Shown: one piece after another, positions 59,688 through 62,514 of the stretch
How the letters are laid out: each line of letters opens with the position of its first letter
Position numbering within the stretch: the first letter of the stretch is position 1
Assembly (NCBI RefSeq): GCF_030384885.1
Contig: NZ_CP128613.1
DNA: 64,000 nt
Reading direction: 5' to 3' (one strand)
DNA from: Escherichia coli
Lineage (GTDB): Bacteria; Pseudomonadota; Gammaproteobacteria; Enterobacterales; Enterobacteriaceae
Translations under genes and position numbers: made by a program
Notes under the pieces: generated by a model
The model's database searches: none
What the model saw: only the letters and a program-made list of their open reading frames with translations
Told to the model about the DNA's origin: nothing

Positions 59688-60614
59688 ATGACTGAACAAC
59701 AAATTAGCCGAACTCAGGCGTGGCTGGAAAGTTTACGACCTAAAACCCTCCCCCTCGCCTTTGCTGCAATTATCGTCGGGACGGCGCTGGCATGGTGGCA
59801 AGGTCACTTCGATCCGCTGGTCGCCCTGCTGGCACTGATTACCGCCGGACTGCTTCAAATTCTCTCTAACCTCGCTAATGATTACGGCGATGCAGTAAAA
59901 GGCAGCGATAAACCTGACCGCATTGGCCCGCTACGTGGCATGCAAAAAGGGGTCATTACCCAGCAAGAGATGAAACGGGCGCTCATTATTACCGTCGTGC
60001 TCATCTGTCTCTCCGGGCTGGCACTGGTTGCAGTGGCGTGCCATACGCTGGCCGATTTTGTCGGTTTCCTGATTCTTGGCGGGTTGTCGATCATTGCCGC
60101 TATCACCTACACCGTGGGCAATCGTCCTTATGGTTATATCGGTTTGGGTGATATTTCCGTACTGGTTTTCTTTGGCTGGTTAAGCGTCATGGGCAGCTGG
60201 TATTTACAGGCTCATACATTGATTCCGGCACTGATCCTTCCGGCGACCGCATGCGGCCTGCTGGCAACGGCAGTACTGAACATTAATAACCTGCGTGATA
60301 TCAATAGCGACCGCGAAAATGGCAAAAACACGCTGGTAGTGCGCTTAGGTGAAGTGAACGCGCGTCGTTATCATGCCTGCCTGCTGATGGGCTCTCTGGT
60401 GTGTCTGGCGCTGTTTAATCTCTTTTCACTGCATAGCCTGTGGGGCTGGCTGTTCCTGCTGGCGGCACCATTACTGGTGAAGCAAGCCCGTTATGTGATG
60501 CGGGAAATGGACCCGGTGGCGATGCGACCGATGCTGGAACGCACTGTCAAGGGAGCGTTACTGACTAACGTGCTGTTTGTTTTAGGGATATTCCTAAGCC
60601 AGTGGGCAGCATAA
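59688..60614 (+). CDS. menA: 1,4-dihydroxy-2-naphthoate octaprenyltransferase
   Basis: MTEQQISRTQAWLESLRPKTLPLAF…; polytopic UbiA-family; start at internal Met of the track ORF. Confidence 0.9.
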   Translation: MTEQQISRTQAWLESLRPKTLPLAFAAIIVGTALAWWQGHFDPLVALLALITAGLLQILSNLANDYGDAVKGSDKPDRIGPLRGMQKGVITQQEMKRALIITVVLICLSGLALVAVACHTLADFVGFLILGGLSIIAAITYTVGNRPYGYIGLGDISVLVFFGWLSVMGSWYLQAHTLIPALILPATACGLLATAVLNINNLRDINSDRENGKNTLVVRLGEVNARRYHACLLMGSLVCLALFNLFSLHSLWGWLFLLAAPLLVKQARYVMREMDPVAMRPMLERTVKGALLTNVLFVLGIFLSQWAA

Positions 60615-60706: not shown

Positions 60707-61192
60707 ATGAAATACGATACTTCCGAGCTTTGTGACATCTATCAAGAAGATGTTAACGTCGTGGAACCGCTGTTCTCCAACTTTGGCGGACGGGCGTCGT
60801 TTGGCGGACAAATAATCACGGTAAAATGTTTCGAGGACAACGGGTTGCTGTACGATCTGCTCGAACAGAATGGCCGTGGTCGTGTTCTCGTCGTTGATGG
60901 CGGTGGTTCTGTTCGTCGCGCACTGGTCGATGCTGAGCTGGCGCGTCTGGCAGTACAAAATGAATGGGAAGGCCTGGTCATTTACGGCGCGGTGCGTCAG
61001 GTAGATGACCTGGAAGAGCTGGATATCGGCATCCAGGCGATGGCAGCAATTCCAGTCGGTGCCGCTGGCGAAGGCATTGGCGAAAGCGATGTCCGCGTTA
61101 ATTTTGGCGGCGTCACCTTCTTCTCCGGTGACCATCTTTATGCCGACAATACCGGAATTATTCTTTCAGAAGATCCGCTGGATATTGAATAA
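60707..61192 (+). CDS. rraA: Regulator of ribonuclease activity A
   Basis: 161 aa, [47 protein letters not shown]…. Confidence 0.92.
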
Positions 61193-61209
61193 GTACCTGC
61201 CATGCGTTA

Positions 61210-61236
61210 AAAGGGGAATTAAATTCCCCTTTTTTA
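61210..61236 (+). terminator. rraA terminator
   Basis: aaggggaatt-aaattcccc followed by ttttttat. Confidence 0.55.
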
Positions 61237-61450
61237 TATGCAAAATATTCATAAAGACTATCATTTGTTTTTATTTAATTCATTTTAAATATCAATAGTT
61301 CACATCTGACAATATAAATTAATTATCGATAAATCATTTCATAAAAATATGCAGCATTAAAAATTAATGCTATATGGTAAATTAACTATTCTGGGAATAG
61401 GGATATGAATCATCGTTAGTAGCGAACGTATTATATAATAAGGGATTGAT

Positions 61451-62167
61451 ATGAGATACGTTATCTTATTAATACTATGGATAATAACTACTTTTCTTAG
61501 TCATCTTCAGCACAGCAACCTACTGTCTGGAGATCCTGGCATGGTTGGCGAGTATATCGGTTCAGTATTTCTGGGGCCGTTGTTACTTCCCGTGCTTGTG
61601 TCAGGTATTCTGTGCGCATTTATTAAAAAAAAACGTAACTTCGCCAGTTTTACTCGCGGGTGCTGTTGGGTATTGGGAATCCTGCTTTTATCCAAAGTCG
61701 GCAATACGTTTCGTATGTTTACCCCGTGGCAATATACCTTTGAGAATGCTGCGATAACCGTGACTATCCCGAACCGACACTGGAATACGGTTTCCATTAG
61801 TACTAATAAAACCATTGATATAAGAAGTGAGGATAATAGCGTCTTCATTTCTGCTTTCCGCCTGCCCGCAGGACGTAGCGCCGATGACCCGCTGGAAGCG
61901 TTAAAGAAGAAGCAGCGAGACAATCTCAAGGATCAATACAATGAGGAAGCCTTCCAGTTTCATGATTGTAATGCCAAACATTTCACCTGTAAGTATCAGG
62001 ATGTGTTGATAAATTTTGATGGTCAGCAGAAAAGAACCATCAGTGTTTATCTTGAAGACACCCCCAGGGCTGTGGGGATCATTGCATTAATGGCGCCAGA
62101 TACGGCAGATAAATATCGCCAACAGGCGATGGAGATTATGCTTTCCGCTAAAAATGCAGTGAAGTAA
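61451..62167 (+). CDS. Hypothetical membrane protein (orphan, AT-rich gene)
   Basis: 238 aa; two to three N-terminal hydrophobic helices (MRYVILLILWIITTFLSHL; SVFLGPLLLPVLVSGILCAFI; CCWVLGILLLS) then soluble domain; no family recognised. Confidence 0.6.
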   Translation: MRYVILLILWIITTFLSHLQHSNLLSGDPGMVGEYIGSVFLGPLLLPVLVSGILCAFIKKKRNFASFTRGCCWVLGILLLSKVGNTFRMFTPWQYTFENAAITVTIPNRHWNTVSISTNKTIDIRSEDNSVFISAFRLPAGRSADDPLEALKKKQRDNLKDQYNEEAFQFHDCNAKHFTCKYQDVLINFDGQQKRTISVYLEDTPRAVGIIALMAPDTADKYRQQAMEIMLSAKNAVK

Positions 62168-62169
62168 AA

Positions 62170-62192
62170 AATAAGGCGCCTTGCGGCGCCTC
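62170..62192. terminator. Terminator-like hairpin between the orphan gene and zapB (convergent)
   Basis: aggcgcc-ttgc-ggcgcct flanked by A-run on one side. Confidence 0.45.
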
Positions 62193-62205
62193 TGCGTGGA
62201 AGAGA

Positions 62206-62514
<309 letters not shown>

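What the first reader, a model, noticed from the sequence alone, without database searches (positions are those of the whole stretch)
61193..62205. Orphan AT-rich membrane-protein gene between rraA and zapB
rraA and zapB are adjacent in K-12 as I recall. Here a 238-aa ORF with N-terminal transmembrane helices and a soluble C-terminal domain sits between them, in visibly AT-rich DNA, bracketed by the rraA terminator and a hairpin shared with convergent zapB. I recognise no family. Small single-gene insertions encoding membrane proteins are often immunity, exclusion or abortive-infection factors, but that is speculation.
Basis: inference. Interest (0 to 1): 0.5.

Follow-up and report, generated by a model that had tools for sequence, protein, structure and literature searches.

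The report
Fast-evolving membrane protein gene beside rraA
The ORF is a real gene for an inner-membrane protein with a periplasmic PsbP/DcrB-type binding domain; it belongs to a tiny, undescribed, fast-evolving Enterobacteriaceae family that always sits just downstream of rraA, and most E. coli (K-12 included) have lost it, so it is an old resident and not a recent insertion.

Summary
A 238-aa ORF (61451-62167, +) lies between rraA and convergent zapB in AT-rich DNA, bracketed by two terminator hairpins, and matches no Pfam, NCBIfam, PADLOC or PHROG family. K-12 has only 84 bp there.

The "single-gene insertion" reading does not hold:
- The slot is occupied in 679 of 5426 complete E. coli genomes. 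661 of these carry two tandem paralogs (29% identical).
- It is also occupied in E. albertii, E. whittamii and cryptic Escherichia clades.
- Relatives only 18-44% identical sit in the same place, directly after rraA, in Atlantibacter, Kluyvera, Enterobacter and Huaxiibacter/Lelliottia.
- Synonymous divergence matches the flanks. No mobility genes, flanking repeats, phage copies or plasmid copies were found.

dN/dS is 0.10-0.31, against 0.00-0.05 for the neighbouring genes, so this is a real gene whose protein evolves about ten times faster than its neighbours.

The most likely mechanism is a membrane-tethered, non-catalytic periplasmic binding module. Whether it protects the cell (immunity-like) or maintains the envelope is undecided. 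Interest is modest.

The parts
60707..61192 (+). rraA, the conserved upstream neighbour. In every Enterobacteriaceae locus examined the family gene lies directly downstream of it on the same strand.
61209..61238 (+). rraA intrinsic terminator: perfect 12-nt arms AAAAGGGGAATT/AATTCCCCTTTT plus a T-run. It is shared by the one-gene and two-gene forms of the locus.
   Evidence: One compensatory AU>GC change in E. albertii.
61240..61439 (+). AT-rich non-coding spacer (GC about 27%) that takes the place of paralog 'gene A'. It is present in only 18 of 5426 E. coli genomes, but is homologous to the spacer of E. albertii, E. whittamii, Escherichia sp. E1V33 and E. coli SCPM-O-B-8794.
   Evidence: No conserved RNA structure, no Rfam family, no conserved small ORF.
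61299..61326 (+). Promoter-like site TTCACA-16 nt-AATTAT inside the most conserved block of the spacer. Candidate promoter for the gene; inferred only.
   Evidence: the number of sites in the region is no higher than in shuffles; conservation
61440..61445 (+). Shine-Dalgarno-like AAGGGA, 5 nt before the ATG. The string ATAATAAGGGATTGATATG is invariant in five Escherichia lineages and also precedes gene B in the two-gene form.
61451..62167 (+). The gene ('gene B'): 238 aa plus stop.
   Evidence: dN/dS 0.10-0.31
61451..61711 (+). Membrane anchor, codons 1-87. Three hydrophobic segments (about 3-20, 35-58, 64-85). The loop 58-70 (IKKKRNFASFTRG) carries 5 positive charges and loop 18-33 carries none. 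Predicted topology is N-in, C-out.
   Evidence: helices in the AF2 model (low confidence); conserved in the family
61541..61543 (+). Internal ATG (M31) used as the start in the RefSeq/PGAP 208-aa annotation. Probably not the true start.
61712..62164 (+). Periplasmic domain, codons 88-238: PsbP/Mog1/DcrB-type alpha-beta sandwich (five strands, helix, four strands, helix).
61967..61990 (+). Codons for C173 (61967-61969) and C180 (61988-61990), a nearly invariant / invariant cysteine pair. In the model the two residues face each other across a beta-hairpin. A periplasmic disulfide is inferred.
62173..62192 (.). GC-rich hairpin shared by the convergent genes. It is the zapB terminator (T-run on the - strand) and corresponds to the K-12 rraA/zapB intergenic hairpin.
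62206..62451 (-). zapB, the convergent downstream neighbour.

Best explanation
The ORF is a functional gene for a small inner-membrane protein.

Architecture and topology:
- Three N-terminal transmembrane helices (N-terminus in the cytoplasm) hold a roughly 150-residue C-terminal domain on the periplasmic face.
- That domain has the PsbP/Mog1/DcrB (DUF1795-like) alpha-beta sandwich and is probably stapled by a C173-C180 disulfide.
- The only residues conserved across the family are structural ones (P107, W111, C173, C180, Y182, L201, S232). No catalytic-looking polar cluster is conserved.
- The protein therefore most likely acts as a membrane-tethered, non-enzymatic binding module for a periplasmic or envelope partner, as the characterised proteins of this fold do.

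Evolution:
- It is not a mobile insertion. It belongs to a very small Enterobacteriaceae family plus a distant branch elsewhere (31 clusters at 50% identity among 1.84 billion proteins).
- The family resides directly downstream of rraA, duplicates in tandem, diverges about ten times faster than its neighbours under weak purifying selection, and is often lost. 87% of E. coli, K-12 included, lack it.
- The window carries the rarer one-gene form, which E. albertii and E. whittamii also have.

What is shown and what is inferred:
- Shown: the gene is real, its selection regime, its distribution, its synteny and its fold.
- Inferred: the topology, the disulfide and the binding function.

Favoured role (weakly supported, about one chance in three): the domain binds and blocks something variable that enters the periplasm from outside, such as a toxin or a phage component. 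Under this reading it is an orphan, immunity-like protective factor and not a housekeeping one.
For: Gene reality and selection:
- dN/dS is 0.10-0.31 over 10 allele pairs, with dS (0.13-0.38) similar to rraA, menA and glpF.
- The start context is invariant.
- The N-terminal 30 aa are conserved in the paralog (BLASTP E 1e-34) and in the family.

Topology:
- Hydropathy and charge distribution.
- Conserved Cys pair on paired strands of the model.

Fold:
- AF2 pLDDT 87.9.
- Foldseek gives the same set.
- 2 of 20 members give weak PsbP Pfam hits, E 0.002.

Residency at the locus:
- The same slot is occupied in Escherichia spp., Atlantibacter, Kluyvera, Enterobacter, Huaxiibacter/Lelliottia and unnamed relatives.
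- No phage or plasmid copies and no flanking repeats.

Fast divergence:
- Family proteins are 22-51% identical where HslU, RraA, ZapB and GlpF are 87-98% identical.

Turnover:
- 679 occupied against 4717 empty E. coli genomes.
- Tandem paralogs in 661 genomes.
- A frameshifted gene A, an IS5 insertion, a transposase fusion in Shigella dysenteriae and truncated forms.

Hints for a protective role:
- The fold is shared with three T6SS periplasmic immunity proteins (the Tsi3 paper PMC3792639 notes the Mog1p/PsbP likeness).
- The fold is also shared with phage-encoded lipoproteins, one of them named 'host cell surface-exposed lipoprotein'.
Against: - No experimental datum exists. Three literature searches found nothing on this locus.
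- The full-length model is poor in the membrane part (pLDDT 61 overall, below 50 for residues 14-47), so the number and orientation of helices rest on hydropathy and charge alone.
- The fold is a generic protein-binding scaffold and does not identify the partner.
- Against a protective or immunity role: no toxin, T6SS, Rhs, CDI or bacteriocin gene is adjacent in any locus; there is no PADLOC hit; inheritance is vertical with dN/dS well below 1; and the family is very narrowly distributed.
- The divergence seen is explained by steady weak constraint (omega about 0.2-0.4) without invoking an arms race.
- Frequent loss and pseudogenisation are also compatible with a gene of little current use.
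Confidence: 0.45

Rival explanations
1. DcrB-like envelope accessory factor. The tethered periplasmic domain partners with an inner-membrane protein or with lipid/lipoprotein biogenesis, as DcrB does with YciB/Lgt and LpqN does with MmpL transporters. It would contribute, redundantly, to envelope homeostasis and would not face foreign proteins.
For: - Same compartment and the same bacterial family.
- Vertical inheritance in a housekeeping neighbourhood (ftsN-hslVU-menA-rraA ... zapB-glpFKX).
- Purifying selection.
- DcrB is described as an inner-membrane lipoprotein acting with YciB in membrane fluidity (PMC9487459).
Against: - No sequence relationship to DcrB: hhalign probability 0.4%, and no PF08786 hit in any of 20 members.
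- DcrB is at least 78% identical across genera, whereas this family falls to 18-44% over the same span. The constraint regime is quite different.
- The gene is dispensable in 87% of E. coli.
- It is anchored by three TM helices and not by a lipobox.
Confidence: 0.25
2. One reading: a recently acquired single-gene island encoding an immunity, superinfection-exclusion or abortive-infection factor.
For: - AT-rich composition.
- Presence/absence polymorphism in E. coli.
- Membrane protein of no known family.
- Phage lipoproteins share the fold.
Against: - The synonymous divergence of the gene is congruent with its flanks.
- The gene and its spacer are present at the same site in E. albertii, E. 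whittamii and cryptic clades, and diverged homologues occupy the same site in other genera.
- No integrase, IS or direct repeats.
- No homologue in 50,697 phage or 72,556 plasmid records; the single 'plasmid' hit is a 4.9-Mb chromosome.
- No PADLOC or PHROG match.
- The common form has two genes, not one.
Confidence: 0.07
3. A decaying relic. The gene once had a role but is now nearly neutral in Escherichia, retained by chance in some lineages and on its way to loss. Its rapid evolution would simply reflect lack of function.
For: - Lost in 87% of E. coli.
- Frameshift, IS insertions and truncated forms.
- dN/dS is 5-10 times that of the neighbours.
- Low GC and possibly poor expression (not tested).
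Against: - dN/dS of 0.10-0.31 is far below 1 in every comparison and in both halves of the protein.
- The full-length reading frame, the three-TM-plus-domain architecture and the Cys pair are kept down to 17-20% identity across genera.
- Both tandem paralogs have been maintained since before the split from another genus.
Confidence: 0.1
4. A regulatory or sensory anchor. The periplasmic PsbP-like domain senses an envelope cue or docks another protein, and the TM bundle relays this to a cytoplasmic or membrane partner. That partner might be functionally tied to the neighbours rraA (RNase E control) or zapB (division).
For: - Strict linkage to rraA on the same strand. In the two-gene form only 60 nt and a terminator separate rraA from the first paralog, so read-through co-transcription is possible.
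- The linkage to rraA survives even where zapB has been replaced downstream.
Against: - The cytoplasmic parts are tiny (a 2-residue N-terminus and a 13-residue loop), with no output domain.
- The linkage is equally explained by vertical inheritance.
- rraA has its own strong terminator.
- RraA is a soluble cytoplasmic protein, and most E. coli function without this gene.
Confidence: 0.08

Closest known systems
DcrB (PF08786, DUF1795/DcrB family), an inner-membrane-anchored periplasmic lipoprotein of E. coli and Salmonella (PDB 6e8a)
   Different: No detectable sequence homology. Anchored by three TM helices and not by a lipid-modified Cys. DcrB is highly conserved and near-universal in the family, whereas this protein is hypervariable and usually absent from E. 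coli.
T6SS periplasmic immunity proteins of the same fold: Tsi3 (PDB 4luq/3wa5), TplEi/Tli4 (5h7y), Tli5/PA3488 (7wdk)
   Different: No cognate effector or T6SS gene lies next to any family member. Those proteins use signal peptides or lipoboxes and not a three-TM anchor. There is no sequence similarity.
PsbP / CyanoP (PF01789) and PsbP-like lumenal proteins
   Different: PsbP proteins are photosynthetic-membrane proteins, soluble or lipid-anchored, and below-threshold sequence scores do not establish membership. Enterobacteria have no photosystem.
Eag chaperones (EagT6/PA0094, SciW; DUF1795)
   Different: Eag proteins are cytoplasmic, have no TM segments, and are encoded next to the Rhs/PAAR effectors whose TM helices they shield. 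None of this applies here.
Phage-encoded lipoproteins with a PsbP-like domain (BFVD A0A8S5SJ17 'host cell surface-exposed lipoprotein', A0A6J5RR90)
   Same: Membrane-anchored, extracytoplasmic domain of the same fold (Foldseek E 4e-6 and 1.5e-4, TM 0.68-0.69).
   Different: Those are lipoproteins of uncultured phages with untested function. No sequence homologue of the window protein exists in the phage collection.

Membership tests
DcrB / DUF1795 (Pfam PF08786) | Sequence match to the family profile at or above the curated threshold | tested here: not met
   No PF08786 hit for the window protein at E<=10 or for any of 20 family members at E<=1. hhalign of the family domain alignment against a DcrB alignment gives probability 0.4%. 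UniRef nevertheless labels two members 'DUF1795 domain-containing'.
DcrB / DUF1795 (Pfam PF08786) | Mog1/PsbP-type alpha-beta sandwich fold | tested here: met
DcrB / DUF1795 (Pfam PF08786) | Lipoprotein signal peptide with lipobox cysteine (DcrB proper) | tested here: not met
   The N-terminus MRYVILLILWIITTFLSHLQHS has no Cys. It is followed by two further hydrophobic segments.
PsbP family (Pfam PF01789) | Sequence match at or above the gathering score | tested here: not met
   Only 2 of 20 members give sub-threshold hits (best E 0.0021). The window protein gives none.
PsbP/Mog1 fold superfamily | Overall topology and structural superposition with several solved members | tested here: met
T6SS periplasmic immunity proteins (Tsi3, TplEi/Tli4, Tli5) | Encoded next to the cognate effector, or within or near a T6SS, vgrG or Rhs cluster | tested here: not met
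   Neighbours in all loci are hslVU, menA, rraA, zapB, glpFKX or pfkA, fieF, cpxP.
T6SS periplasmic immunity proteins (Tsi3, TplEi/Tli4, Tli5) | Periplasmic localisation | tested here: inconclusive
   Predicted from three hydrophobic segments, a +5 loop at 58-70 and a conserved Cys pair. No experimental test was possible.
T6SS periplasmic immunity proteins (Tsi3, TplEi/Tli4, Tli5) | Binds and neutralises a specific toxin | not testable with these tools
   Needs competition assays or binding assays.
Known anti-phage defence / abortive-infection systems | Match to a model of a known or candidate defence protein | tested here: not met
   0 PADLOC families at E<=10.
Known anti-phage defence / abortive-infection systems | Location in a mobile element or defence island | tested here: not met
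   No phage or plasmid copies. No flanking repeats. Conserved housekeeping neighbourhood.
   dS of the gene (0.13-0.38) is comparable to that of rraA, menA and glpF in the same genome pairs. The gene and its spacer are present at the site in E. albertii, E. whittamii and Escherichia sp..
   GC is 0.27 in the spacer and 0.42-0.46 in the ORF, against 0.51-0.57 in the flanks.
New family proposed here (rraA-downstream three-TM / PsbP-like proteins) | 227-241 aa; three N-terminal hydrophobic segments; the motif [VIL]-x-[VIL]-P-x(2,3)-W; C-x6-C-x-Y in the domain; gene directly after rraA in Enterobacteriaceae | tested here: met
   Alignment of 20 members. Profile search finds 31 clusters, and all full-length ones are 227-241 aa. 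Synteny.

The most novel reading that the evidence does not exclude
The rraA-downstream slot is a chromosomally fixed, hypervariable 'orphan immunity' locus of Enterobacteriaceae. Its three-TM-anchored PsbP-like proteins, often present as divergent tandem paralogs, would each neutralise a different periplasm-acting toxin (a T6SS, bacteriocin or CDI effector) or block a phage envelope-crossing step. That would define a new immunity or exclusion protein family with a new architecture, kept without any cognate toxin gene.
Probability: 0.25. Interest if true: 0.6.

Novelty: new variant of a known kind. Interest (0 to 1): 0.35.

Why it matters
If the reading is right, this is an undescribed small protein family. 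It combines a known periplasmic binding fold with a new three-helix membrane anchor. It is present in major pathogens (E. coli O157:H7 and O145:H28, E. albertii) and absent from the K-12 laboratory strain, which helps explain why nobody has studied it.

Its behaviour is unusual for a gene sitting among core genes. The position is fixed, the protein sequence diverges to the limit of detection within one bacterial family, it duplicates in tandem and it is lost repeatedly. Loci of this kind are good candidates for factors that interact with competitors, phages or the host envelope environment.

Two practical points follow. The RefSeq gene model is probably 30 codons too short, which removes the first transmembrane helix. 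The rraA-zapB interval is also a simple presence/absence and one-gene/two-gene marker among Escherichia lineages.

As it stands, however, this is a hypothetical membrane protein with a predicted fold and no phenotype. A specialist would find it mildly interesting, not surprising.

Tried and rejected
- Family assignment by sequence. Pfam, NCBIfam, PADLOC and PHROGs gave only noise (BOF / OB-fold, E 0.05-0.14). These OB-fold hits were rejected because the confident model is a PsbP-type sandwich.
- Profile search of PDB sequences gave nothing meaningful.
- hhalign against a DcrB alignment gave no relationship. The DcrB alignment was shallow (at least 79% identity to K-12 DcrB), so this test is weak beyond DcrB proper.
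- The word-indexed homologue search found only Escherichia and Shigella sequences. The exhaustive HMM search was needed to reach other genera.
- The search for related loci failed with the diverse alignment because no conserved 7-10-column stretch exists. With the close alignment it returned only Escherichia.
- The AFDB50 fold library was unavailable, so no survey of predicted structures with the same three-TM-plus-domain architecture could be made.
- The full-length AF2 model was poor (pLDDT 61). Only the domain model was used for fold searches.
- The idea that the 260-nt AT-rich spacer hides an sRNA, riboswitch or small ORF was rejected. Rfam gave only a sub-threshold sraA hit over the rraA terminator (24 bits against a gathering score of 56). 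RNAalifold gave a covariation term of about 0 and supports only the terminator. No conserved ORF was found. Spacer divergence is about neutral.
- The mobile-element hallmarks were rejected (annotations).
- Three literature searches for the locus, its accession numbers and guessed O157 locus tags found nothing. The EDL933/Sakai tags were guessed from memory and may be wrong.
- Paralogs next to the distant-clade members were looked for and not found.
Full report
**1. The observation**

The window contains hslU, menA and rraA (60707-61192, +), then an ATG-started 238-codon ORF at 61451-62167 (+), then convergent zapB (62206-62451, -) and glpF.
- GC content drops to 0.27 just after rraA. It stays at 0.42-0.46 through the ORF, against 0.51-0.57 in the neighbours.
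- A perfect hairpin plus T-run follows rraA (61209-61238).
- A GC-rich hairpin at 62173-62192 lies 5 nt after the ORF stop. Its T-run is on the zapB strand.
- In K-12 MG1655 rraA and zapB are 84 bp apart.
- Every factual element of the finding is therefore confirmed.
- No Pfam, NCBIfam, PADLOC or PHROG model matches beyond noise.

**2. The gene model**

RefSeq genomes carrying the identical DNA annotate a 208-aa 'hypothetical protein' starting at M31. The 238-aa form is better supported:
- Residues 1-30 align with the paralog and with homologues down to about 20% identity. M1, I5, L6, H18, L24, L25, G27 and G30 are invariant among the close set.
- The upstream string ATAATAAGGGATTGATATG is invariant in five Escherichia lineages.

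**3. The locus in E. coli and Escherichia**

- The segment is present in 679 of 5426 complete E. coli genomes, always on the chromosome.
- 4717 genomes have the K-12-type empty junction.
- In 661 carriers, including O157:H7 EDL933 and O145:H28, there are two genes. A 224-aa 'gene A' starts 60 nt after rraA. The window's gene ('gene B') starts 32 nt after gene A. A and B are paralogs over their full length (29% identity, E 1e-34).
- The window's arrangement has gene B alone, preceded by a roughly 260-nt AT-rich spacer. It occurs in only 18 E. coli genomes.
- That arrangement is, however, the one found in E. albertii, E. whittamii, Escherichia sp. E1V33 and a divergent E. coli, with a homologous spacer 75-95% identical.
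- The spacer shows no conserved RNA structure, no Rfam family and no conserved small ORF. It contains one conserved promoter-like site (61299-61326).
- Decay is visible in places: gene A frameshifted, gene B split by an IS5-family element, truncated products and a transposase fusion in Shigella dysenteriae.

**4. Not a mobile insertion**

- Nei-Gojobori estimates give dS of 0.13-0.17 for gene B between the window allele and the common E. coli alleles. The same genomes give 0.10-0.12 for rraA and 0.09-0.10 for menA.
- Against E. albertii, dS is 0.34 for gene B, 0.23 for rraA, 0.28 for glpF and 0.65 for menA. The gene has diverged in step with its flanks.
- No direct or inverted repeats bracket it.
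- No integrase or transposase accompanies it.
- tblastn finds no homologue in 50,697 phage records. It finds none in 72,556 plasmid records apart from a 4.9-Mb chromosome filed as a plasmid.

**5. The family**

An exhaustive profile search of 1.84 billion cluster representatives found only 31 clusters. All full-length members are 227-241 aa.

Named members come from Escherichia, Shigella, Atlantibacter subterraneus, Kluyvera ascorbata, Enterobacter spp., Huaxiibacter chinensis, Lelliottia and Pseudocitrobacter. They are called 'hypothetical protein', 'putative membrane protein' or, in UniRef, 'DUF1795 domain-containing protein'.

Wherever an enterobacterial contig is long enough, the gene lies directly after rraA on the same strand:

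| Host | Context |
|---|---|
| Atlantibacter | an NlpA-type lipoprotein gene is interposed |
| Enterobacter | rraA fragment upstream, zapB downstream |
| Huaxiibacter/Lelliottia | exactly between rraA and zapB, at 18% identity |
| Kluyvera and one unnamed genus | zapB-glpFKX replaced by pfkA-fieF downstream; the rraA linkage persists |
| Another unnamed genus | both an A-like (51%) and a B-like (40%) copy in tandem, so the duplication predates that split |

- A distant branch (17-23% identity) occurs in unrelated contexts in unidentified bacteria.
- Where HslU, RraA, ZapB and GlpF are 87-98% identical to the window's proteins, the family proteins are 22-51% identical.

**6. Selection**

- dN/dS for gene B is 0.10-0.31 in all pairs and in both halves of the protein. 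For gene A it is 0.41 in the one usable pair. The neighbours give 0.00-0.05.
- This shows a translated, constrained gene whose protein evolves roughly an order of magnitude faster than the surrounding core genes.
- A steady omega of 0.2-0.4 is enough to explain the inter-genus divergence. Positive selection is neither required nor excluded.

**7. The protein**

- Hydropathy gives three segments (3-20, 35-58, 64-85).
- The loop 58-70 has five Lys/Arg and the loop 18-33 has none. The positive-inside rule then puts the N-terminus in the cytoplasm and the C-terminal domain in the periplasm (inference).
- Family-wide conserved residues are P107, W111, C173, C180, Y182, L201 and S232.
- In the domain model the two cysteines lie on adjacent antiparallel strands opposite each other (strands 84-88 and 91-102 in domain numbering). 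This fits a periplasmic disulfide (inference).
- The full-length AF2 model is poor (pLDDT 61). The domain, modelled with a 24-sequence alignment, is good (pLDDT 87.9, pTM 0.84).
- Foldseek agrees.
- Against viral models, the best hits are phage lipoproteins (E 4e-6, TM 0.68).
- At sequence level there is no membership. PF08786 is never hit. PF01789 is hit weakly by 2 of 20 members. hhalign against DcrB is negative.

**8. Interpretation**

Characterised members of this fold are non-enzymatic protein-binding (or lipid-binding) modules on the non-cytoplasmic side of a membrane, or chaperones:
- PsbP on photosystem II.
- DcrB, acting with YciB (PMC9487459).
- LpqN with MmpL transporters (from the PDB description).
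- Tsi3, TplEi and Tli5, which neutralise periplasmic T6SS effectors.

With only structural residues conserved, the best-supported mechanism is a membrane-tethered periplasmic binding module.

What it binds is open.
- Several features lean towards a partner that is itself variable or foreign, that is an immunity-like or exclusion-like role: rapid divergence, tandem divergent paralogs, presence/absence polymorphism, and a fold shared with immunity proteins and phage lipoproteins.
- Other features lean towards a weakly constrained envelope accessory protein: strictly vertical inheritance, absence of any toxin or secretion genes nearby, absence from mobile elements, no defence-model hit, and dN/dS well below 1.
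- I rate the protective reading at about one in three and the DcrB-like reading at about one in four. The last of these is largely refuted as far as 'insertion' goes.

**9. Novelty and verdict**

- The gene is annotated in hundreds of genomes, but only as hypothetical. Three literature searches found nothing on it.
- It defines a small new family: a new sequence family and a new three-TM anchor on a well-known fold. It is a new variant of a known kind.
- The positional fixity combined with extreme divergence is the most interesting aspect. Without a phenotype it merits modest interest (0.35).

Noticed in passing
window 61541 (M31) versus 61451 (M1); L001 2849-3475: RefSeq/PGAP gene models for this protein start 30 codons too late (208 aa). 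This cuts off the first predicted transmembrane helix. Most database entries of the cluster are the 208-aa form.
   Followed up: yes
L003 1560-2234; L022 2294-2968 (E. coli O157:H7 EDL933): Most carrier genomes (661 of 679) have a second, upstream paralog ('gene A', 224 aa, 29% identical). In the window it is replaced by a non-homologous 200-nt AT-rich spacer. Neither form derives from the other by a simple deletion.
   Followed up: yes
L023 1549-3375 (E. coli TCM3e1); L002 1560-2233; P0017 (Shigella dysenteriae 1617): Independent inactivations are seen: an IS5-family (ISKpn26) insertion splitting gene B, a frameshift in gene A, and a fusion of a gene B fragment to a transposase ORF in Shigella.
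   Followed up: partly
window 61193-61240 and 62168-62205 versus L004 3762-3845 (K-12): The K-12 empty junction is not a clean excision. The rraA stop codon differs (TGA against TAA). K-12 has about 50 nt of private sequence with its own small hairpin next to zapB. Its terminator stem matches the window's zapB-side hairpin but with the loop sequence inverted (GCAA against TTGC).
   Followed up: partly
L028 6837-11009 (Kluyvera) and L026/L027 6827-8874: In Kluyvera and one unnamed genus the synteny breaks immediately after the family gene. zapB-glpFKX is replaced by pfkA-fieF-cpxP (plus an esterase/MFS/AraC cassette in Kluyvera, and P2-like prophage tail genes in L026). The gene therefore marks a rearrangement boundary.
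   Followed up: no
L010 4796-5614 (Atlantibacter subterraneus); L030 7761-8072: Other cargo occupies the same rraA-zapB interval in relatives. Atlantibacter has an NlpA/Lipoprotein_9 gene on the opposite strand, and another genus has a Y1-transposase (IS200/RAYT-like) gene. The interval thus accumulates variable content.
   Followed up: no
window 60707-61192 (rraA) and 59688-60614 (menA): The window's rraA and menA differ from other E. coli, including strains whose gene B is 99.6-99.7% identical to the window's, at dS about 0.10. zapB and glpF are nearly identical (dS 0-0.04). This suggests a recombination breakpoint between rraA and gene B in this lineage.
   Followed up: partly
window 62194-62222: A 14-nt imperfect inverted repeat (GCGTGGAAGAGATT / AACCTCTTCCATGC) spans the zapB stop codon, next to the shared terminator. 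Its significance is unknown.
   Followed up: no
NZ_CP141089.1 in the plasmid collection: A 4.94-Mb E. coli record is filed as a plasmid in PLSDB. It is evidently a chromosome, and it accounts for the only 'plasmid' hit.
   Followed up: no
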